DNA of 10,129 nucleotides from assembly GCA_903897985.1 (NCBI GenBank), contig CAIUDS010000675.1:1-10129 (forward strand). The letters run 5' to 3'. The notes beneath the pieces were generated by a model. The model searched no databases. It was not told the origin of the DNA and saw only the letters and a list, made by a program, of their open reading frames with translations. Below, piece by piece: positions 1,249 to 9,984 of this stretch; positions within the stretch are counted from its first letter, which is position 1, and each line of letters opens with the position of its first letter. Both the position numbers and the translations under genes were made by a program. The DNA is from an uncultured delta proteobacterium. GTDB taxonomy: Bacteria; RBG-13-61-14; DRUE01.

Positions 1249-3672
1249 CTACCAGGCGATCTTTACCTGAAGCGCATCCCGGCTATCCGGAATCTTGAAT
1301 GACACCCGACCGTCGGCAAAGTCGAAAGCAAGATTCTGTTTTTCCGCCCCCTTGCCCAGCTCAATCGCCTTGGGCTTTTGGTCGGTGAAGACCACGAAAT
1401 CAAGATCGCGCGTGCTGGATTGCATCTTGCCTTCCGAGGAAGCTTTGGTAATCGTCAGCGAGGCAGTCCCCGACTGCTGGCAAAACCGGTTGCTCCGGTA
1501 TTCGCCGTTCAAATATGCATACCCGTTTCCCGCATCCTCGTAAAGGTCGAAGCAGGTTTTCGTGTCGCCGGGATAGAACTCTATGGACAGGGGCGCCCAC
1601 GGGCGCTCGCCCGTGTAATTCATCACCGGCGCCAGCGGAATGATCGCTCCGGCTCTCACAAACATCGGGATGGTGTCGAGCGCAACCGCGGTCACGACCT
1701 CTTTTGCGCCGTCGGTCCGGTTGGCGGTTTCGAAATCATACCACTGGCCTGCGGGCAGATAGACACTTCGTGTCCCCCTTTTCGCCTCCATCATCGGGGC
1801 AACCAGAAGCCAGTCTCCGATCATGAACTCGTCCGTGATCTGGTAGGTTTTTTCATCCGCGGGAAATTCCAAGAGCAAAGCCCGGAAGATGGGCCGGCCG
1901 GTCTCGGAGGTTTCCTTGAAATAATTGTAATAATAGGGCAGGAGCCGGTAGCGGAGTTGGATGGCTTTGCGCGATGCGTCTAGAACAGCATTGCCGTAGG
2001 AGAACGGGTCCTGACTGGGAGTGCCCTGGCTGGTATGGGTCCGGCTGAACGGATAGAACGATCCCTGTTCGATCCAGCGCGCATATAGCTCCGGCGACGG
2101 CGCGCCGCCGAACCCGCCGATGTCCGCGCCGACCATGGGCATGCCCGAGATGCCCATACTCAGGAGCATGGATGACGCGAGCCGCAAGTGGTCCCAATTG
2201 GCTGTATTATCTCCAGTCCAGACACAGGCGTATTTCTGGATGCCGGCATAACCGCCCCGGCTGATCACGAACGGCCGCTCATCGGGCCGGAGCCGCTTGA
2301 GCCCTTCAAAACTCGCCTGGCTCATTAGCGAGCCGTAGGCATTGTGGACCAGGCTATGCTCAACCTCGCCGCTCGGGCCGTGGCGCATGGGCAGGAACTC
2401 CACCTTGCCATGGCTCTTGCTCCAACCCGCGGGCTCGTTCATGTCGTCCCACACCCCGGCGATGCCGATGTCGGTCAGGAATTTCTGCAAGCCGCCCCAC
2501 CACTCCCTCACATTGGCCTGATAAAAATCCGGGTAATAGACCGCGCCCGGCCAGACATTGGCGGTGAAATATCCGCCGCGCGAATCATGCACGAAATAGT
2601 TTCTTTCCCGGGACTGGTCAAAGACCAGGTAGCCCGGCTCGATCTTGACGCCCGGGTCAACAATCGTGATCACCTTGAACCCGTCCTTTGCCAAATCCGC
2701 GACCATTTTCTTGGGGTCCGGGAACCGCTTCGGGTTGAAGGTGAAAACCTTGTAGGCGTCCATGTAGTGAATATCCAGGAAGATCACATCGCACGGGACC
2801 CGCAGGGTCCTGAATTTATTTGCCAGCCGGCGCACAATAGACTCATTCTTATAACTCCACCGGCACTGCTGATAGCCCAGCGCCCAGAGCGGCGGGAGCG
2901 GGTATCGGCCGACCAGCGAGGAGTAGCGCTCGATCACCTGCATGGGCGCGGGACCGGCGATGAGGTAATAGTTCAATTCGCCGCCATCGGCCCGGTAGAA
3001 GAACTTGCCCGGCTCGGTCGCGCCGACATCGAAAGCCGCGCGATAGGAATTGTCCAGGAAAATTCCGTAGGCCAGCCCCTTGCGCAGCGAGAGGTAATAC
3101 GGATGCGACTGATAGATCGGGTCGTCATTCGGCGCGTAACCATGGTCGGTGTTCCACATCGTCATCTTCCAGCCGCGCTTGTCGAACGGCCCGGTCTTCT
3201 CGCCGAACCCATAAAAATGCTCGCCCGTTTGGATCGTTCGGGTCACCCCCGGTTTGCCGCCCTCGAAAAAGATGCCGCCCCCCTCCGGCTCGGAGAAAAG
3301 CAGGTTCCCGTCCCGGTCATAAGCCTCGAAGACACCAGTGTCCTTATTTATCCTGAGCCGGAGCGCAACCGTGCTCAGGGTGAGAAAACTCTTGGCATCC
3401 TCATATGCAATCGGCCCCGGCTGAGGCGCGCTGTCCGCCAACGCGAACGAAAAATCCGGCGCGAATTCTTTCTGATTCGTCGCGCGCACCCTTATGATCT
3501 CCGGCGTGAGCGCGCTCACCTTGACCATGCCCCCGGAAAAATTTATGACCACTCCGTCCGGCTTCGGCTCGAATCCGGTCACCTTCCCCAAATTGACCCT
3601 GCCGGTCTGCCCAAAAGCCGAGCCCGCGGCCAGCAACCCCAAAACCAAAATCGAGAAAATTTTCCTGCTCAT
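1249..3672 (-). CDS. GH31-family glycoside hydrolase (alpha-glucosidase-like), secreted; full length, about 807 aa from the proposed start
   Basis: The 887-aa ORF contains both GH31 signature regions: GVWDDMNEPA (catalytic-nucleophile WxDMNE motif) and MVGADIGGFGG (acid/base region). The likely true start is the internal Met at 3670-3672, giving MSRKIFSILVLGLLAAGSAFGQ, a Sec signal peptide. The 80 residues upstream in the listed ORF (MPTPSFQNL...) are Arg/Gly-rich read-through of the promoter region. A GGAGGG Shine-Dalgarno lies upstream of 3672. Confidence 0.85.
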   Translation of the reverse strand: MSRKIFSILVLGLLAAGSAFGQTGRVNLGKVTGFEPKPDGVVINFSGGMVKVSALTPEIIRVRATNQKEFAPDFSFALADSAPQPGPIAYEDAKSFLTLSTVALRLRINKDTGVFEAYDRDGNLLFSEPEGGGIFFEGGKPGVTRTIQTGEHFYGFGEKTGPFDKRGWKMTMWNTDHGYAPNDDPIYQSHPYYLSLRKGLAYGIFLDNSYRAAFDVGATEPGKFFYRADGGELNYYLIAGPAPMQVIERYSSLVGRYPLPPLWALGYQQCRWSYKNESIVRRLANKFRTLRVPCDVIFLDIHYMDAYKVFTFNPKRFPDPKKMVADLAKDGFKVITIVDPGVKIEPGYLVFDQSRERNYFVHDSRGGYFTANVWPGAVYYPDFYQANVREWWGGLQKFLTDIGIAGVWDDMNEPAGWSKSHGKVEFLPMRHGPSGEVEHSLVHNAYGSLMSQASFEGLKRLRPDERPFVISRGGYAGIQKYACVWTGDNTANWDHLRLASSMLLSMGISGMPMVGADIGGFGGAPSPELYARWIEQGSFYPFSRTHTSQGTPSQDPFSYGNAVLDASRKAIQLRYRLLPYYYNYFKETSETGRPIFRALLLEFPADEKTYQITDEFMIGDWLLVAPMMEAKRGTRSVYLPAGQWYDFETANRTDGAKEVVTAVALDTIPMFVRAGAIIPLAPVMNYTGERPWAPLSIEFYPGDTKTCFDLYEDAGNGYAYLNGEYRSNRFCQQSGTASLTITKASSEGKMQSSTRDLDFVVFTDQKPKAIELGKGAEKQNLAFDFADGRVSFKIPDSRDALQVKIAW

Positions 3673-3699
3673 CTTTCCCCATCCCTCCATTTTGCGGTT

Positions 3700-3745
3700 A
3701 CCTAAAATATATATCCCACCCGGCTTTTTATAGCAATCGCGCAAC
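3700..3745 (-). promoter_or_regulatory. Candidate sigma70-type promoter for the GH31-trmJ operon (read on the minus strand: TTGCTA-N17-TATATA; an alternative TTGCGC -35 lies 3 nt after the upstream motif)
   Basis: The minus strand reads ...AAATTTTTTGGTTGCGCGATTGCTATAAAAAGCCGGGTGGGATATATATTTTAGG..., placing the -10 about 25 nt upstream of the GGAGGG Shine-Dalgarno and ATG at 3672. Hexamers were assigned by eye. Confidence 0.3.
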
Positions 3746-3775: not shown

Positions 3776-3922
3776 CGCGCGCGCCCGCGCGCTTTGGAGT
3801 GCGGCGTCCGCGACGCCGCTTTAAAAGCGGTGCCGCCGGCACCGCAGTCCAAAACGCTTTCAGCGCAAATTGGTTGAATTCTATTGAGATTTTGAAAACT
3901 GGGGGTGGGCAAGGAAATTTTT
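3747..3922. repeat. Imperfect inverted repeat of about 28 bp (AAAAATTTC-TTGCCCACCCCCGGTTTT / AAAACTGGGGGTGGGCAAGGAAATTTTT) enclosing three tandem GC-rich palindromic hairpins
   Basis: Left arm at 3747-3775, right arm at 3895-3922, with 1 indel and 1 mismatch. Internal palindromes: CGCGCGCGCCCGCGCGC (3776-3792), GCGGCGTCCGCGACGCCGC (3801-3819), GCGGTGCCGCCGGCACCGC (3827-3845). Each is followed by TTT. Confidence 0.6.
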
Positions 3923-3955
3923 CACTTGACAAATTATTAGGGAAAGGGCTAATTT
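3895..3955 (+). promoter_or_regulatory. Copy B of the upstream motif (AAAACTGGGGGTGGGCAAGGAAATTTTT), followed after 3 nt by a sigma70-like promoter (TTGACA at 3926-3931, N17-18, TAATTT at about 3950-3955) for the flotillin-like gene
   Basis: The -35 hexamer is a perfect consensus. The predicted leader is about 50 nt, ending in the strong Shine-Dalgarno AAGGAGGGGG (4001-4010) and ATG at 4015. Confidence 0.45.
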
Positions 3956-4014
3956 ATGGGGGTTGGAAACGGGTCAAGAATGAAAAATTACGATGTAATC
4001 AAGGAGGGGGTAAG

Positions 4015-5970
4015 ATGGTGCCAGGATTGATTGTATTGGCCATGGTCATTGCCGCGATTTTGATTCTGCCTTCATTCCGGAATATCGGCCCGACCGAGAT
4101 TGGTCTGGTCACCAAACGGTTTTCCGTAAAGAAACTGGCGGAAGACAACCTGGTGGCATTCGAGGGGGAGGCCGGGTATCAGGCGGACCTGTTGATGCCG
4201 GGCTGGCGCTGGAAACTCTGGATGGTGTTCAGGATCGAGAAATTCCCCTGGGTGCAGGTTCCGGCCGGAGAGATCGGCGTGGTCATCGCCCAGGTGGGAC
4301 ATCCACTCCCGATCGGGGCCAAGTCCGCGGTCTTCAAAAAGGAGTTCGCCAATTTCAGCGACCTGCGCCGGTTTGTGGAACTGGGCGGTCAAAAGGGCGT
4401 GCAGCGGCCCGTGCTTTCGCCCGGAACCCTGGTGCCGATACATCCGGTCGGGTTCCTGATCCTGACCAAGCACAAGATTTACGGCGTCCCGGTTTCTCCG
4501 CAATTCAAGGCCATTGGCCGCCAACTCGCCCCGCAGGACTTCGGCCTGTCCGCGGCGCAACTGGAAGTGGTCCGGATCGAGCCGGCGCCGATGGAGGAAA
4601 AATCTTCTGCCCTGGATATGATCGGCGTGGTTACGACCTTTGAGGGCGATCCTTTGCCCGCCGGAGACATCGCCAACCGGCTGGGCGGGTTTGAGGATGT
4701 GGAAAAATTGGAACGGGCCAACGAGAGCGACATCAAGCTGATCGAGACCATCCTGGGCAGCAAGAACAACCTCCATAATAACTACCAGGACTACCAGGCC
4801 TTCCTCGACCATGGCGGCAGGATCGGCCTTCAGCACGATCCCCTGCTTTACGGCGCTTACAATTTAAACCCGTTCCTGGTCGCGGTCGAGAGGGTGGCCA
4901 TGCTCAAGGTCGAGCAAGGCGAGGTGGCGGTGATCAAGTCCTATGTGGGCCTCCCAACCGAGGATGTCTCCGGCGCCGAGTTCAAGTTCGGCAGCCTGGT
5001 CAAGCCCGGGCATCGCGGCATCTGGAGAGAGCCGCTCCGGACCGGCAAATTCCCGATCAACCCCAGGTGCTACGAGGCCGAAATCGTTCCCACCAGCATC
5101 CTCACTCTGAACTGGGCCGAGGCCACCTCCATGGCCCACAAGCTCGACGCGAACCTCAAATCCATTGACGCCAAATCCCGCGAGGGCTTTGTCTTCAAGA
5201 TAGACCTCCAGGTCCAGATCCATGTCCCGGACACCAAGGCCCCCAAGGTGATCTCGATCGTGGGCACCATGGCCAACCTGGTCAACGAGGTTTTGCAGGC
5301 CGCGGTCGGGAACCATTTCCGCGACAAATTGCAGAGCATGCCCGCGGTCATGTTCATCGAGACCCGGCAGGAAGTGCAGCAACAGGCTTTTGCGCATATC
5401 AAGGAGCATCTGGCGCAGTATGAGGTCGAGACCAAGGGCGTTTATATTCAGGATGTGGTCCTGCCCCAGGGCCTGGTCAATGTGCTGACCCAGCGCGAAA
5501 TCGCCAACCAGGAGATCAATACCTTCAAAAAACAGCAGCAGGCCCAGGAGCAGCGGATCGAAATGGAAAAATCCAAGGGTACCGCGGACATGCAGGCCGA
5601 ACTCGCCCGGTCCAAAGTCGGGATTGACATCAAAACCAACAACGCGTCCGCGCGCAAGTCCGAGGCCGACGGCGAGGCCACCTATATCCGCGAGACCGGC
5701 ATCGCCAAGGGCGCCGAGGTCGAGGCGGTCGGAATGGCCCGGGCCAAGGGCTTTGACGCCCAAGTTAAAGCCATGGGCCGCGAGACCACCGCGCTTGTCA
5801 ATGTCATCACCGTGCTTGCGGAAAAAGGGACCAAGTTCGTCCCCGAAATCCTGGTCATGGGCGGCTCCGGCGCCGCCGGCGGCAGCGGTAGCCTCGAGGG
5901 CCTCGCCGCCACCCTCATGAAATTCATCCGCGCCAAGACTGATCAGGACGCGAAAGGGTTGACCAAATAG
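4015..5970 (+). CDS. Flotillin-like SPFH/band-7 membrane protein (YqiK/FloT-like), 652 aa: N-terminal TM helix, SPFH region, long coiled coil, C-terminal EA/AKG-rich repeats and Gly-rich tail
   Basis: The true start is the Met at 4015, preceded by the Shine-Dalgarno AAGGAGGGGG. The listed ORF start at 3757 lies in the intergenic region. The N-terminus MVPGLIVLAMVIAAILILPSF is a TM helix. The C-terminal part reads QQQAQEQRIEMEKSKG...ATYIRETGIAKGAEVEAVGMARAKGFDAQVKAMG...KFVPEILVMGGSGAAGG. This parallels the FloT/YqiK tail as recalled (AEAEVIRLKGLAEAEA...ITVVDTGGSG). The SPFH portion is longer than in FloT. Confidence 0.6.
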   Translation: MVPGLIVLAMVIAAILILPSFRNIGPTEIGLVTKRFSVKKLAEDNLVAFEGEAGYQADLLMPGWRWKLWMVFRIEKFPWVQVPAGEIGVVIAQVGHPLPIGAKSAVFKKEFANFSDLRRFVELGGQKGVQRPVLSPGTLVPIHPVGFLILTKHKIYGVPVSPQFKAIGRQLAPQDFGLSAAQLEVVRIEPAPMEEKSSALDMIGVVTTFEGDPLPAGDIANRLGGFEDVEKLERANESDIKLIETILGSKNNLHNNYQDYQAFLDHGGRIGLQHDPLLYGAYNLNPFLVAVERVAMLKVEQGEVAVIKSYVGLPTEDVSGAEFKFGSLVKPGHRGIWREPLRTGKFPINPRCYEAEIVPTSILTLNWAEATSMAHKLDANLKSIDAKSREGFVFKIDLQVQIHVPDTKAPKVISIVGTMANLVNEVLQAAVGNHFRDKLQSMPAVMFIETRQEVQQQAFAHIKEHLAQYEVETKGVYIQDVVLPQGLVNVLTQREIANQEINTFKKQQQAQEQRIEMEKSKGTADMQAELARSKVGIDIKTNNASARKSEADGEATYIRETGIAKGAEVEAVGMARAKGFDAQVKAMGRETTALVNVITVLAEKGTKFVPEILVMGGSGAAGGSGSLEGLAATLMKFIRAKTDQDAKGLTK

Positions 5971-6048
5971 ACACGATAAACAGGAGCGGATTGGGCGCAC
6001 TTCGTTTCCAGCTTTTCCGAAGAATGCACGGGAATTGGTGCGGAAAAA

Positions 6049-6825
6049 ATGTATTATGACGAACTCATCATACGGTGCGGGCGGTTCTTGCATAAGAACT
6101 GGTTGATCAATTTGGCGGTCGCTTGCGGGCCGATCACGATTTTTATCGTGTTTACATGGGCGACAACTCGATTGCTAAATTTCGAGTCCAGCGGACTTAC
6201 CCATTTAATATTCATTATAGGTTACCTCGCCATTACCGCGCTGATGTTCTATGCGCATTGGGCCGCGGTTTCGTTTTTCTATCACAGCGAATTTGAGCGG
6301 AAGAACATGTCTCTTAAAGCTGTTTTGATCAATGCGCTCAGGCCATTTTATCTTTTCGTCATCATCCTTACGCTTGGCTTAGCCGGTGAGGCCGTTTCAC
6401 AAAGAATTCTGACCAACAATCTAGCGGCAAAAATATCCTTGATGGGGCTCTTGTCGGTGATAATGCTTGTGCTTGAATTGGCGTGCATCATGTTGATCTT
6501 GCGGGATGAAGATGTGGCCGAAGTCTTGCGGCGCACGGTCGGGCTGGTATCTCGAAATATTTCCGCGCTGCTCAGGCTGTATCTGAATATTTTGTTCTGG
6601 TCATTTCCGCTCATATTGATTCTGGGTATCGCAGCTTGGGGGAGCATCCACTATTCCGCTTCCATCCATGTCTTTCTCATAAACAAAGGAATTGACATTC
6701 AAAAAATGTTTTGGGTGCGGAACGGGCTGGTTGTGATCGTCTATACCTTCTTTACGCTTTTATATCTCTGTTTCCTTTATGTGGAAACGGAATTCCTGAA
6801 GAGGCTGGATGAGCTTAAAGGGTAA
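6049..6825 (+). CDS. Hypothetical polytopic membrane protein (about 6 predicted TM helices), no recognisable family. First gene of the AT-rich three-gene cassette.
   Basis: The 258-aa ORF has six hydrophobic helical stretches (approximate residues 17-37, 50-78, 100-116, 129-151, 174-200, 228-245). GC content is about 40-45% against about 60% in the flanks. Its stop is 2 nt before the MNT ATG. No strong Shine-Dalgarno is evident upstream. Confidence 0.55.
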   Translation: MYYDELIIRCGRFLHKNWLINLAVACGPITIFIVFTWATTRLLNFESSGLTHLIFIIGYLAITALMFYAHWAAVSFFYHSEFERKNMSLKAVLINALRPFYLFVIILTLGLAGEAVSQRILTNNLAAKISLMGLLSVIMLVLELACIMLILRDEDVAEVLRRTVGLVSRNISALLRLYLNILFWSFPLILILGIAAWGSIHYSASIHVFLINKGIDIQKMFWVRNGLVVIVYTFFTLLYLCFLYVETEFLKRLDELKG

Positions 6826-6827
6826 GG

Positions 6828-7163
6828 ATGAATTTTCAGTCCGGGGTTGCCTTTTGGCTCAATTTGATCGAGAATAAAGGTATGGACACGACGGTTCAAT
6901 CCGAAATCGAAAATGCGGTGCGCATTCTCAAAGAATACGGCGCCCGGGAGGTCTATCTGTTCGGCTCTCACGCCCACGGCAAGGCCCGGCCAAACTCCGA
7001 CCTGGATCTGGCGGTCACCGGGATTCCTCCCGAGAAATTCATAAGGGCGTATGGGAAGGTGATGTGGAAACTCGACCGGCCGGTTCACTTGATTGACTTG
7101 GACGAGGATTCCGACTTTAGTAAATTCATCAAGACCAACGGAGAGCTTAGAAGTGTCGGTTGA
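6828..7163 (+). CDS. Minimal nucleotidyltransferase (MNT, Pol-beta superfamily); putative antitoxin/modifier of a HEPN-MNT pair
   Basis: Carries the NTase-fold motif YLFGSHAHGKARPNSDLDLAV (GS-x10-D-x-D) and is about 110 aa, typical of MntA/HI0073-type proteins. A Shine-Dalgarno AAGGGTAAGG sits before the ATG at 6828. An alternative start is MDTTVQ at 6882. Confidence 0.8.
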   Translation: MNFQSGVAFWLNLIENKGMDTTVQSEIENAVRILKEYGAREVYLFGSHAHGKARPNSDLDLAVTGIPPEKFIRAYGKVMWKLDRPVHLIDLDEDSDFSKFIKTNGELRSVG

Positions 7164-7602
7164 TCTCGGGAAGCAGATAGCGTTTGAGCTTGGGCAACTC
7201 GGGAAATTGGTCGAGGTCAATTCCTCTCTCCAACGCAAAATCGGCGGCCGGGAGCCGGATGAGTTTGATGTCTTTGCTTTTGCCGCGATTCTGCATTCTT
7301 TTTACAACGGGATCGAGAATATTTTTTCGCGGATTGCCAACGAACTTGACGGCGGAACCCCCGATGGATCCAACTGGCATAGAGACTTGCTGTCCTCGAT
7401 GTCTAAGCCTGGGAGTCGTCGAGGAAGCGTAATCACTCAAGAACTGGCTGAAGAGTTAAACGACTACCTGACCTTTCGACATCTTTTTCGCAGCATCTAT
7501 TCTTTTGAACTGAAGTGGGAAAGAATGAGAAAATTGGTTATGGACATGGAGAGGGTATTTAGAGAATTTGAAAAACAATTAGCGAACTTTAAAGCAGACT
7601 AA
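7153..7602 (+). CDS. HEPN-domain / HI0074-family nucleotidyltransferase-substrate-binding protein (putative toxin partner of the MNT). The catalytic His of the Rx4-6H motif is apparently replaced: RHLFRSIY.
   Basis: A GTG start at 7153 is preceded by a GGAGAG Shine-Dalgarno. It overlaps the MNT stop by 11 nt, a TA-like arrangement. The helical, about 149-aa product reads VSVDLGKQIAFELGQLGKL...FAFAAILHSFYNGIENIFSRIANEL...YLTFRHLFRSIYSFE. This is collinear with HI0074 as recalled (ALFQLEQGL...IQRFEYTLDLSWKTLRRVL...FHEARNKTAHTYD). The listed ORF start at 7093 is a TTG deep inside the MNT gene. Confidence 0.55.
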   Translation: MSVDLGKQIAFELGQLGKLVEVNSSLQRKIGGREPDEFDVFAFAAILHSFYNGIENIFSRIANELDGGTPDGSNWHRDLLSSMSKPGSRRGSVITQELAEELNDYLTFRHLFRSIYSFELKWERMRKLVMDMERVFREFEKQLANFKAD

Positions 7603-7608
7603 TCCGCT

Positions 7609-7830
7609 TTACTTGTCATTCTTCCCCAGCGCCATATACACCCCTCCCCCAATCAGGGCGGCGCCGATCAGGAACCTTGGGGTCATGGGATCGTGGAAGA
7701 CCGGGCTGGCAAGGGGGATGCCCACCAGGGGCTGGATCATGATGGAGATGCCGACCCGGTGGGAGGCGCGCCGGCTGAGCGCCTGGTAGTAAATCCAATA
7801 TCCGATGGAGGTCGCGATGCTGTGCCGCTT
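7609..7830 (-). pseudogene. 3' fragment of an EamA/DMT-superfamily transporter gene (about 73 C-terminal codons). The 5' part of the gene is missing.
   Basis: The minus-strand frame reads KKRHSIATSIGYWIYYQALSRRASHRVGISIMIQPLVGIPLASPVFHDPMTPRFLIGAALIGGGVYMALGKNDK*. This is the typical C-terminal EamA-domain pattern (Q.L...........P..........E.....IGa.LI..Gvy). A stop (TAA) lies immediately upstream in frame at 7831-7833. Only about 140 nt separate it from the next gene, so a full transporter of about 300 aa cannot fit. Confidence 0.5.
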
Positions 7831-7973
7831 CTTTTACCCTTAAAACCTAACTTAACCACCTGTCCAGTTTTGGGGGGAAGCTCAGTTCGCAGACAAGAGG
7901 GTCTGCGGCCCCTAGAAGAGCGCGCGCAGCACGAATGCCTGCGCAATTAATGCTCGCACATCAATGCTCGTCG

Positions 7974-9116
7974 CTAGGCTTCATGCTCATGCTCGGCGGG
8001 AAAGATGGGCAGGATTTTGGCGGCGACGATGAAAATAATGACGCCGAGGGTAAGGATCATGAAGGTGATGGAGATTTCCTGCCAGGTCGGGAAATAGCGG
8101 GCATGGCTCTGCAGGAGGAACCCGACGATGGTGAAATTAAGTCGGTTCATGAACAACCCGAGCACGGCCAGGACCGCGGCGATACGGAACCCGATGCGGG
8201 AGTTGCGGACCGCGGGGATGGCGAGGAGGACGATGGGGAGGATGACGCCCGGAATGGTTTCCAGGCCGAGCCAGAAGGCGGCTTGGGGATCATTCGCCAG
8301 CAGGGTCCATTTGCCCAAGCGGGTGAAATCGGCGCAGAGGATAATGAGATATGCGGCGAGGGTCCCAAGCAGGAGTTTGGCCAGGGCTTTGACCAGTTCG
8401 GGCGAGAACCTCCAGTGAACGAATTTTTCGGCCATGAAGAGTTCCATAACGAGGAACCCGAGTCCGCCGGGGAGTGCGGAAGCCAGGAAGATGAGGGGCA
8501 TCCAAGAGGAATACCAGATGGGGGACATTTTTTCGCTGGCGATGAGGAAAATGGTCCCGATGGATGACTGGTGCAGGGTTGAGAGGACGGCGCCGAGGAG
8601 GGCAAGCAGGACCACCAAACCTTTGAGCCGGTCGGCGATTTTTTTCCAGCCGACACCCTCGGTAAAGGGGATGGCCATTTCCATACCGAGCACGGCCACA
8701 TAAGTCCCGATGCACCAGGCGGTCTCCAACATGGCGGAATGGATGTTCCAGTAGATGAGCGGGTGCCAGAAATGGAGCGGGAGTCCGAGGTCGTAGATGA
8801 GTTCGACCGCGACCAGGGAGTATCCGACAAAGGCGGTGAGCACCGCGGCGCGGACGATGGAATGGAAGCGCTCGTAGTGGAACAGATAGACCACCGCGGC
8901 GAGGATGAACCCGCCGGCGCTGAGTCCGACCCGGGTCAGGGTGAACCAGATCCAGAGTCCCCAAGGCACGGAGTCGGAAAGATGGGTGGTGGCGCCCAGG
9001 CCCCTTGAGAAGCGGAGCCAAGTGGCATAAAGCCCGACCGCGAAGATGGCCAGGACCGCGAGTCCGATCGCCGCGGTCGAGATCCGAGTGAGCGGCTTGC
9101 TGTTATTATTTGCCAT
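7974..9116 (-). CDS. NrfD/PsrC-family polytopic membrane subunit (quinone-interacting membrane anchor of NrfCD/PsrBC/DsrOP/HybAB-type modules)
   Basis: The 380-aa protein has multiple TM helices. Its N-terminal family signature is LSDSVPWGLWIWFTLTRVGLSAGGF (compare PsrC/NrfD: DSVPWGL...F.GLSAGA). Its start overlaps the upstream FeS gene's stop by 11 nt. Confidence 0.8.
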   Translation of the reverse strand: MANNNSKPLTRISTAAIGLAVLAIFAVGLYATWLRFSRGLGATTHLSDSVPWGLWIWFTLTRVGLSAGGFILAAVVYLFHYERFHSIVRAAVLTAFVGYSLVAVELIYDLGLPLHFWHPLIYWNIHSAMLETAWCIGTYVAVLGMEMAIPFTEGVGWKKIADRLKGLVVLLALLGAVLSTLHQSSIGTIFLIASEKMSPIWYSSWMPLIFLASALPGGLGFLVMELFMAEKFVHWRFSPELVKALAKLLLGTLAAYLIILCADFTRLGKWTLLANDPQAAFWLGLETIPGVILPIVLLAIPAVRNSRIGFRIAAVLAVLGLFMNRLNFTIVGFLLQSHARYFPTWQEISITFMILTLGVIIFIVAAKILPIFPAEHEHEA

Positions 9117-9864
9117 CGAATTCCTTCTTTCTGAGCAGGGCCTCGAGCGCGGCGACTTCGTTGCGTCTCTTGGAAAGCCACCAGATCCCGCAGAGCATGG
9201 TCCCCACGCCGAAGCCCACGAAGGGGACCTGGTTATGGGCGGCCGCGGTGAGGTCGGGCAGGGGCGTTTTGATGGTCGGATAGATCAGGGCTTTCTTCAC
9301 GATCACCGGGCTGGTGATGATCAGGATGGACGAACCACCGCCTTCGGTCTCGCCGAAGACCTTGGGGAAATACCATTGGGGTTCGGCCTCGAGCCGGGCA
9401 TGGGCCTCCTTCAGCAGTTCCTCGCGCTCGCCGAAGACCGTGGCCTCCGCGGGACAGGCGTCGGCGCAGGCCGTGGCTTCTCCTTGCTTCTGCTTCTCGA
9501 CGCAGAAGTCGCACTTGCGCACCTGCGGCCGCGTGGAATTCCACTGGTAGCGCGGAATCCGGTAGGGGCAGGCCACAAAACAATAGCGGCAGCCAATGCA
9601 CTTGTTCGCGTCATAGACCACCGGGCCTTCCGCAGTCTTCTTGAGCGCGCCCACCGGGCACGACGAGGCGCAGGCCGGCTTGAGACAATGGCGGCAGAAA
9701 TCCCGAACCTTATAGCCGTCCACCCGCTTCACGACCGTGAAATTGTCCGCGTCCAGATCGGTGGGGTTCAATTTGCCTGACAGATGGTGGGCTTCCCGAC
9801 ACGCCTCGCTGCAATTGCCGCAACCGATGCAAAGCCTGGAATCAAACAGAATGCCTTTACTCAT
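9106..9864 (-). CDS. 4x[4Fe-4S] ferredoxin-type iron-sulfur subunit (PsrB/NrfC/DmsB/HybA-like) with a C-terminal TM anchor and no N-terminal Tat signal
   Basis: Four Cys clusters: CIGCGNCSEAC; CRHCLKPACASSCP; CIGCRYCFVACP; CDFCVEKQ...CADACP. The N-terminus MSKGILFDSRLCIGCGNC is DmsB/PsrB-like. The C-terminal hydrophobic helix is VPFVGFGVGTMLCGIWWLS, followed by basic residues. The Shine-Dalgarno AAGGATAGGAG precedes the ATG. Confidence 0.85.
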   Translation of the reverse strand: MSKGILFDSRLCIGCGNCSEACREAHHLSGKLNPTDLDADNFTVVKRVDGYKVRDFCRHCLKPACASSCPVGALKKTAEGPVVYDANKCIGCRYCFVACPYRIPRYQWNSTRPQVRKCDFCVEKQKQGEATACADACPAEATVFGEREELLKEAHARLEAEPQWYFPKVFGETEGGGSSILIITSPVIVKKALIYPTIKTPLPDLTAAAHNQVPFVGFGVGTMLCGIWWLSKRRNEVAALEALLRKKEFDGK

Positions 9865-9926
9865 GCTCCTATCCTTTCTACTGCTTACCCTGAAGTTAGC
9901 CTTGAGATTCCAGCGCCACTATTTAA

Positions 9927-9984
9927 TAATTTAGCCATATTAGCGCATATGTCAAGCTAAAAATTTTGAGTTGCCCCCGGTTTT
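9927..9984 (-). promoter_or_regulatory. Copy C of the upstream motif (minus-strand reading AAAACCGGGGGCAACTCAAAATTTTTA) followed after 2 nt by a sigma70-like promoter (TTGACA at 9950-9955, N16-17, TAAATT) for the FeS/NrfD operon
   Basis: Motif, spacing and -35 hexamer have the same architecture as copy B at 3895-3931. The leader to the ATG at 9864 is about 55 nt. Confidence 0.45.

What the first reader, a model, noticed from the sequence alone, without database searches (positions are those of the whole stretch)
6049..7602. AT-rich three-gene cassette: 6-TM membrane protein + minimal nucleotidyltransferase + HEPN/HI0074-like protein. Candidate novel membrane-associated HEPN/MNT toxin-antitoxin or defense module.
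Three tightly coupled genes sit in a block whose GC content (about 45%) is far below the flanks (about 60-70%). This points to horizontal acquisition. The first gene stops 2 nt before the second starts, and the second and third overlap by 11 nt.

MNT-HEPN pairs are well known as two-gene type VII TA systems (MntA/HepT). A translationally coupled upstream polytopic membrane protein with no recognisable family is not part of that canonical architecture. The arrangement resembles nucleotidyltransferase-plus-membrane-effector logic seen in abortive-infection systems such as CBASS, but with a minimal NTase. The membrane protein could be an effector, an anchor or an immunity component.
Basis: partly seen in the sequence, partly recalled or inferred. 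Interest (0 to 1): 0.8.

Follow-up and report, generated by a model that had tools for sequence, protein, structure and literature searches.

The report
MNT-HepT toxin-antitoxin beside orphan membrane gene
A small block of foreign-looking DNA carries an ordinary two-gene MNT/HEPN toxin-antitoxin pair next to a membrane-protein gene that has no detectable relative anywhere, and nothing beyond their adjacency in this one genome shows that the three genes work together.

Summary
Three co-oriented ORFs (6049-6825, 6828-7163, 7153-7602) lie in a block of 46-52% GC between genes of 59-61% GC.

Genes 2 and 3 are a standard MntA/HepT-type (type VII) pair:
- The nucleotidyltransferase matches Pfam Polbeta and has an exact GSX10DXD motif.
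- The catalytic His of RX4HXY is Ser here.

The membrane ORF is very likely a real 6-TM protein, but it is a strict orphan. It matches only itself among 5.8 billion protein clusters and 1.84 billion representatives. It has no match in GTDB genomes, viral contigs, plasmids or phages, and no hit in Pfam, NCBIfam, PADLOC or PHROGs.

Among 85 related HepT-like_2 loci, 78 have the nucleotidyltransferase directly upstream. None has a relative of the membrane protein. None of the 45 loci with enough upstream DNA has a co-oriented polytopic membrane gene there.

Homologues also place the nucleotidyltransferase start at ATG 6882, so the gap is probably 56 nt, not 2 nt.

Verdict: a known two-gene module next to an orphan gene. 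A three-component membrane-linked system is not excluded but has no support. Interest is low.

The parts
5971..7605 (.). Low-GC block (about 46-52% GC) between host-like genes of 59-61% GC. Presumed horizontally acquired islet.
   Evidence: Composition profile. Per-gene GC and GC3. Dinucleotide signature of both halves deviates from the host: delta* 93-106 against 50-78 among host segments. No tRNA, flanking repeats, integrase or Rfam hit.
6049..6825 (+). Orphan ORF encoding a 258-aa predicted 6-TM inner-membrane protein (N-in/C-in by charge distribution). No detectable homologue.
6828..7163 (+). Minimal nucleotidyltransferase (MntA-like antitoxin). The longest ORF is 111 aa from ATG 6828. The start favoured by homologues is ATG 6882 (93 aa). 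Motif GS-HAHGKARPNS-DLD matches GSX10DXD.
   Evidence: Pfam Polbeta and NTP_transf_2. NCBIfam MntA_antitoxin 44.3 bits, below its 60-bit cut-off. Motif read, with its definition from PMC7641770. Start-site comparison.
7153..7602 (+). HepT-like_2 HEPN protein (putative RNase toxin), 149 aa from GTG 7153, overlapping the MNT stop by 11 nt. The motif reads R109-HLFR-S114-I-Y116, so the canonical His is replaced by Ser.
7609..7833 (-). Right-hand boundary: C-terminal remnant of a host-type EamA/DMT transporter gene (about 70 codons, 5' part missing), convergent with HepT and 6 nt from its stop.
   Evidence: Translation. Pfam EamA E 8e-8 over profile positions 72-133 of 135. GC3 0.85.

Best explanation
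The block is a small horizontally acquired islet holding two unrelated things.

(1) An ordinary two-gene MntA/HepT-type (type VII) toxin-antitoxin module. The HepT-like_2 HEPN protein would act as an RNase toxin. The upstream, overlapping minimal nucleotidyltransferase would neutralise it by AMPylating the conserved Tyr (Y116) next to the active site, using its GSX10DXD centre. This mechanism is inferred from characterised HepT/MntA pairs, not shown here. Because the catalytic His of RX4HXY is Ser in this copy, the toxin may be weakened or may use the invariant R109/H110/H76 instead.

(2) Immediately upstream, a lineage-specific orphan gene for a 6-TM membrane protein of unknown role. It is adjacent through insertion or co-transfer history, not as a conserved third component. 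It may still be co-transcribed with the pair, since the gap is at most 56 nt and no terminator was found.
For: Family and motifs:
- MNT and HepT family assignments.
- Exact GSX10DXD motif, with motif definitions and mechanism from PMC7641770.
- High-confidence HEPN model whose best structural matches are HepT toxins solved with their MNT antitoxins.

Architecture in relatives:
- The MNT-then-HepT order with a short overlap is the rule. 78 of 85 related loci have the MNT directly upstream, with overlaps of 4-11 nt.
- In those loci the module is two genes set in varied, unrelated neighbourhoods.
- 0 of 45 loci have a co-oriented multi-TM gene upstream.

The membrane protein:
- It has no relative in any collection searched.
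- TM and TA halves are each atypical for the host but are not alike in dinucleotide signature, with delta* 174.

The locus as a site of flux:
- A truncated EamA gene lies at the right edge.
- Homology with a 91%-identical relative stops 20 nt past the NrfD stop.
Against: - All three genes are co-oriented, closely spaced (2 or 56 nt, and an 11-nt overlap) and share a lowered GC3. That pattern would also be expected of a co-acquired operon.
- No promoter-like site was found between the TM ORF and the MNT. The scan is crude and the organism's promoters are unknown.
- Absence of homologues means conservation of the association cannot be tested at all. It does not show the association is non-functional.
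- The His-to-Ser change means canonical toxin activity is not assured.
Confidence: 0.72

Rival explanations
1. The three genes form one functional three-component module. The 6-TM protein would be an effector, anchor or sensor working with the MNT-HepT pair, making this a unique membrane-linked TA or defence system.
For: Co-orientation, close spacing, and lowered GC/GC3 in all three genes. No terminator-like or promoter-like site between them. The HepT lacks the canonical catalytic His, which could fit a changed role. HEPN domains fused to TM segments are known in other families (PMC3710099).
Against: The membrane protein has no homologue anywhere. 0 of 85 related loci encode a relative of it, and 0 of 45 have a co-oriented polytopic gene upstream. 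No PADLOC hit for the TM or HEPN protein. The likely MNT start at 6882 removes the 2-nt coupling. TM and TA halves differ strongly in dinucleotide signature. The case rests on adjacency in one genome.
Confidence: 0.08
2. The 258-codon ORF is not a functional gene. It would be an unexpressed or decaying stretch of foreign DNA, or an over-called ORF, and only the MNT-HepT pair is functional.
For: No homologue exists, so no evidence of purifying selection can be obtained. No recognisable promoter upstream. The single-sequence structure model has low confidence.
Against: The ORF is longer than any in 3000 shuffles. It has six regularly spaced hydrophobic segments with a positive-inside charge pattern. 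GC3 > GC1 > GC2 in this frame. An SD-like GGAA lies upstream of the ATG (read from the sequence). Public gene callers called it in every contig.
Confidence: 0.12
3. The membrane protein is a partner of the upstream SPFH/flotillin-like protein (4015-5970), as NfeD-type membrane proteins are for other SPFH proteins. On this reading it has nothing to do with the TA pair.
For: Same strand, 78 nt downstream of the SPFH stop. That SPFH genes often sit in operons with membrane partners is general knowledge, not tested here.
Against: GC3 is 0.59 against 0.80 for the SPFH gene. None of 75 SPFH-homologue loci encodes a relative of it, and their downstream genes vary. No NfeD or other Pfam match.
Confidence: 0.03

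Closest known systems
HepT/MntA type VII toxin-antitoxin systems (Shewanella oneidensis SO_3166/SO_3165, PDB 5yep; Aphanizomenon flos-aquae HEPN/MNT, PDB 7ae2; Legionella HEPN-MNT, PDB 8xdj)
   Different: Only 9-17% sequence identity to the solved toxins. The HEPN protein belongs to Pfam HepT-like_2 (PF20797), not DUF86 (PF01934). The catalytic His of RX4HXY is Ser here. The MNT scores below the NCBIfam MntA equivalog cut-off. No activity data.
Metagenomic Polbeta + HepT-like_2 (PF20797) pairs, e.g. Candidatus Handelsmanbacteria MFKF01000135 (L003) and loci L081-L160
   Same: Same two families, same order and short overlap. 40-52% identity for HepT and 33-55% for MNT. These are stand-alone two-gene modules in varied neighbourhoods.
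   Different: None has the upstream 6-TM ORF. 74 of 86 keep the RX4H His that this copy lacks.
CBASS-type nucleotidyltransferase plus membrane effector systems
   Same: Only the superficial pairing of a Pol-beta-superfamily NTase gene with a multi-TM protein gene.
   Different: The NTase is a 93-111-aa MNT, not a CD-NTase; the PADLOC cyclase model gives 14.7 bits, E 0.0035. The TM protein matches no effector model. The NTase's evident partner is the HEPN protein.
HI0074-type HEPN (PF05168; Class II HEPN/MNT of PMC7641770)
   Different: No Pfam PF05168 match. Structurally and by profile it is closer to HepT. Most members of its own family do have RX4HXY.

Membership tests
HepT/MntA type VII TA (Class I, as defined in PMC7641770) | MNT antitoxin carries the GSX10DXD nucleotidyltransferase motif | tested here: met
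   LFGS-HAHGKARPNS-DLD in the 6828-7163 product: GS, ten residues, then DLD. Motif definition. Pfam Polbeta and NTP_transf_2 above their cut-offs.
HepT/MntA type VII TA (Class I, as defined in PMC7641770) | HEPN toxin carries RX4HXY (catalytic R and H, AMPylated Y) | tested here: not met
   The window protein reads R109-HLFR-S114-I-Y116. R and Y are present but His is replaced by Ser. In 86 family members this column is H 74, S 6, N 4, Q 2.
HepT/MntA type VII TA (Class I, as defined in PMC7641770) | MNT gene immediately upstream of the HEPN gene, as neighbouring genes in one operon | tested here: met
   11-nt overlap, 7153-7163. The same order is seen in 78 of 85 related loci.
HepT/MntA type VII TA (Class I, as defined in PMC7641770) | HEPN fold of the HepT toxins | tested here: met
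HepT/MntA type VII TA (Class I, as defined in PMC7641770) | HEPN is toxic (RNase) and is neutralised by MNT-catalysed AMPylation | not testable with these tools
   Needs expression, mass-spectrometry and RNase assays.
NCBIfam NF047752 MntA_antitoxin (equivalog) | Score at or above the curated cut-off of 60 bits | tested here: not met
   44.3 bits, E 1.3e-11. This is a relative, not an equivalog by NCBI's threshold.
Pfam PF20797 HepT-like_2 | Score above the gathering threshold of 27 bits over the full profile | tested here: met
   115 bits, profile positions 1-108 of 110.
   No homologue of the membrane protein exists in any collection searched. 0 of 85 related loci have a relative, and 0 of 45 have a co-oriented multi-TM ORF upstream.
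CBASS / CD-NTase defence systems | cGAS/DncV-like cyclase and a recognised effector | tested here: not met
   PADLOC cyclase model gives only 14.7 bits (E 0.0035) on the MNT. There is no effector hit on the TM protein.
Known or candidate defence systems in PADLOC-DB v2 | Component proteins match system models | tested here: inconclusive
   The MNT matches the candidate models PDC-S09 (up to 40 bits). The TM and HEPN proteins have no hit.

The most novel reading that the evidence does not exclude
The orphan 6-TM protein is a genuine third component of a one-off membrane-linked MNT-HepT system. For example, it could be a membrane effector or sensor coupled to a HepT whose canonical catalytic His has been lost (RX4SXY). 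If so, the module would work differently from the classical RNase/AMPylation TA pair.
Probability: 0.07. Interest if true: 0.6.

Novelty: new member of a known kind. Interest (0 to 1): 0.15.

Why it matters
As it stands, this adds one more diverged MNT/HepT-like_2 pair to the most abundant predicted TA class, plus one more metagenomic orphan membrane gene. Neither changes current understanding.

Two points have modest value. First, about 14% of this HepT-like_2 sample, including this copy, lack the canonical RX4H His while keeping R109, H110, H76 and the acceptor Tyr. That raises a testable question about how, or whether, these toxins cleave RNA. Second, the case shows that tight spacing and shared low GC in a single genome do not establish a multi-gene system.

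If the membrane protein were shown to be functionally coupled, it would be a new TA/defence architecture.

Tried and rejected
Searches for relatives of the membrane protein found nothing but itself:
- Word-seeded search of 5.8 billion protein clusters at E up to 0.01 and up to 10.
- Exhaustive phmmer against 1.84 billion representatives.
- tblastn-confirmed scans of GTDB genomes and IMG/VR.
- tblastn against plasmids and phages.

Profile libraries (Pfam, also at E up to 10; NCBIfam; PADLOC; PHROGs) gave only a sub-threshold DctM match, 17.3 bits against a cut-off of 23.8, which I take as hydrophobic noise.

From memory, the layout resembles the YciC/DUF975/GPDPase_memb type of membrane protein. 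No tool result supports this, so I make no claim.

The synteny approach was uninformative:
- 75 loci with SPFH homologues share none of the window's other genes.
- The only near relative (91% nt identity) covers just the FeS and NrfD genes and diverges beyond them. A clean empty site could therefore not be recovered.

No mobile-element signatures were found: no tRNA, no Rfam match with an E-value below 0.2, and no flanking direct or inverted repeats beyond chance-length matches. The promoter/terminator scan found nothing useful.

The dinucleotide comparison of the TM and TA halves is noisy at about 780 nt each. I treat it as weak evidence only.

A sequence search of the PDB with HepT gave only chance cytochrome c1 matches. 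The fold comparison was needed instead.

Full report
**Observation**

The window has three co-oriented ORFs at the stated coordinates: 6049-6825 (258 aa), 6828-7163 (111 aa), and a frame open from 7093 to 7602.
- In the third frame, the GTG at 7153 overlaps the stop of the second gene by 11 nt. It aligns with the start Met of homologues.
- GC content is 45.7%, 51.8% and 46.4% for the three genes, against 58.7-61.1% for the five flanking genes. GC3 is 0.59, 0.66 and 0.52 against 0.76-0.80.
- The host's own membrane protein NrfD has GC3 0.80 and uses no ATA codon. The TM ORF uses ATA for 7 of its 29 Ile codons. The low GC is therefore not simply a membrane-protein effect.
Otherwise the description is accurate.
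- The SPFH-TM junction and the TM-MNT-NrfD junctions recur in independent assemblies. The arrangement is not an assembly artefact.

**Genes 2 and 3**

- Gene 2 matches Pfam Polbeta (E 6e-10) and NTP_transf_2 (E 6e-9). It reads GS-HAHGKARPNS-DLD, an exact GSX10DXD.
- Yao et al. (PMC7641770) showed that this motif catalyses tri-AMPylation of the HepT Tyr in RX4HXY.
- Gene 3 matches Pfam HepT-like_2 (PF20797) at 115 bits against a cut-off of 27.
- With a 19-sequence alignment it folds at pLDDT 96.4.
- One departure: the window protein reads R109-HLFR-S114-I-Y116. The catalytic His of RX4HXY is Ser.
- Across 86 family members this column is H 74, S 6, N 4, Q 2. H48, Y51, G53, E55, F108 and R113 are invariant, and H76, R109, H110 and Y116 are nearly so (84-85 of 86).
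- The MNT scores below the NCBIfam MntA equivalog cut-off, 44.3 against 60 bits.
- I file the pair as a diverged member of the MntA/HepT kind. The AMPylation-neutralised RNase mechanism is inferred, not shown. This copy's toxin activity is in question.

**The membrane ORF**

It is very probably a real protein-coding gene.
- It is longer than any stop-free stretch in 3000 shuffles of the block.
- It has six regularly spaced hydrophobic segments.
- Its charge distribution fits an N-in/C-in six-helix topology: 12 K+R on the inside against 4 outside.
- GC3 > GC1 > GC2 in this frame.

It is also a strict orphan.
- It matches only itself among 5.8 billion protein clusters, even at E up to 10.
- It matches only itself in an exhaustive phmmer of 1.84 billion representatives.
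- It has no match in 185,579 GTDB genomes, IMG/VR, plasmids or phages.
- Pfam, NCBIfam, PADLOC and PHROGs give nothing except a sub-threshold DctM match.

**Is the association conserved?**

I collected 85 loci encoding HepT-like_2 relatives: 5 by exact look-up and 80 from JGI metagenomes.
- 78 have the MNT directly upstream.
- None contains a relative of the membrane protein by tblastn at E up to 0.01.
- 45 loci have at least 800 nt upstream of the MNT. Only one of these has any ORF with three or more hydrophobic segments within 1.1 kb, and it lies on the opposite strand. The same script recovers the window's 6-TM ORF.
- The neighbourhoods are unrelated to each other, for example cysS/ruvC, DAG kinase/cupin and asparaginase. 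That is typical of a mobile two-gene module.

The membrane gene is not a partner of the upstream SPFH gene either. 75 loci with 50-72% identical SPFH homologues have variable downstream genes and no relative of the ORF.

**Spacing**

The 2-nt gap depends on taking the longest MNT ORF. In about 35 of 78 homologues an ATG aligns exactly with M19 of the window protein (ATG 6882). In many of the closest ones only 3-9 codons are open upstream of it, and 93 aa is their modal length. The first 18 residues of the 111-aa version have no counterpart. The likely gap is therefore 56 nt. That is still compatible with co-transcription but is not translational coupling. The consensus scan found no promoter-like or terminator-like site that helps.

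**Origin**

I found no integrase, tRNA, Rfam element or flanking repeats.
- The right edge abuts a C-terminal remnant of an EamA transporter gene with host-like composition, 7609-7833 on the minus strand (Pfam E 8e-8).
- A 91%-identical relative shares only the FeS and NrfD genes and loses homology 20 nt past the NrfD stop. This interval is a site of rearrangement.
- The dinucleotide signatures of the TM half and the TA half both deviate from the host (delta* 106 and 93, against 50-78 among host segments). They differ even more from each other (174). At about 780 nt each, this is only weak evidence against a common donor.

**Conclusion**

The most likely reading (about 0.72) is a canonical two-gene MNT/HepT-like module and an unrelated orphan membrane gene lying side by side in a small foreign islet.

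| Reading | Probability |
|---|---|
| Functional three-component system | about 0.08 |
| The ORF is not functional | about 0.12 |
| The ORF partners the SPFH protein | about 0.03 |

HEPN domains fused to TM segments are known in other families (PMC3710099). A membrane link would therefore not be unprecedented in principle, but nothing here supports it beyond adjacency. Novelty: a new member of a known kind. Interest is low.

Noticed in passing
window 7609-7833 (- strand): C-terminal remnant (about 70 codons) of an EamA/DMT transporter gene with host-like GC3 of 0.85. The 5' two-thirds are missing. Only 140 nt separate it from the NrfD stop, and 6 nt from the HepT stop. It looks like a pseudogene marking a deletion or rearrangement at this site.
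   Followed up: partly
window 7153-7602, residue 114 of the HepT-like protein: The canonical catalytic His of the HEPN RX4H(XY) motif is Ser. 12 of 86 HepT-like_2 sequences sampled carry S, N or Q there, while R109, H110, R113, H76 and Y116 stay (nearly) invariant. The family may use a different catalytic arrangement, or these copies may be inactive.
   Followed up: partly
window 4015-5970 (+); loci L006-L080: The 651-aa SPFH/Band_7 protein has 55-72% identical homologues in MAGs labelled Acidobacteriota, Armatimonadota, Actinomycetota, Patescibacteria, Bipolaricaulota and others. Their neighbours are not conserved, so the distribution looks patchy and HGT-like. Its N-terminal ~300 residues have no Pfam match.
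   Followed up: partly
window 6828-6881: The first 18 codons of the longest MNT ORF have no counterpart in homologues. ATG 6882 coincides with the homologues' start. Public gene calls use 6828.
   Followed up: yes
window 7147-7440 (- strand) / sister contig of ERZ1426824: In the public gene calls of a sister contig, the HepT gene was not called. An antisense 77-aa ORF was called in its place, probably because HepT starts with GTG and overlaps the MNT. HepT is therefore missing from the protein collection for this organism.
   Followed up: partly
L161/L162 versus window 7953-9965: The nearest available relative (91% nucleotide identity) shares only the 4Fe-4S and NrfD genes. Homology ends 20 nt after the NrfD stop and about 100 nt upstream of the FeS start. 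Either this two-gene respiratory block sits in different contexts, or both flanks have been replaced.
   Followed up: partly
window 3913-4014: A 38% GC divergent intergenic region lies between the GH31 gene (- strand) and the SPFH gene (+ strand). The longest ORFs of both genes run into and overlap each other there (GH31 to 3912, SPFH from 3757). The public gene calls of sister contigs use shorter products: GH31 of 807-811 aa and SPFH of 651 aa.
   Followed up: no
window 2344-3705 (+) and 4864-6093 (-): Very long antisense ORFs (453 and 409 aa) lie opposite the GH31 and SPFH genes. I take them as shadow ORFs typical of high-GC coding DNA, not genes.
   Followed up: no
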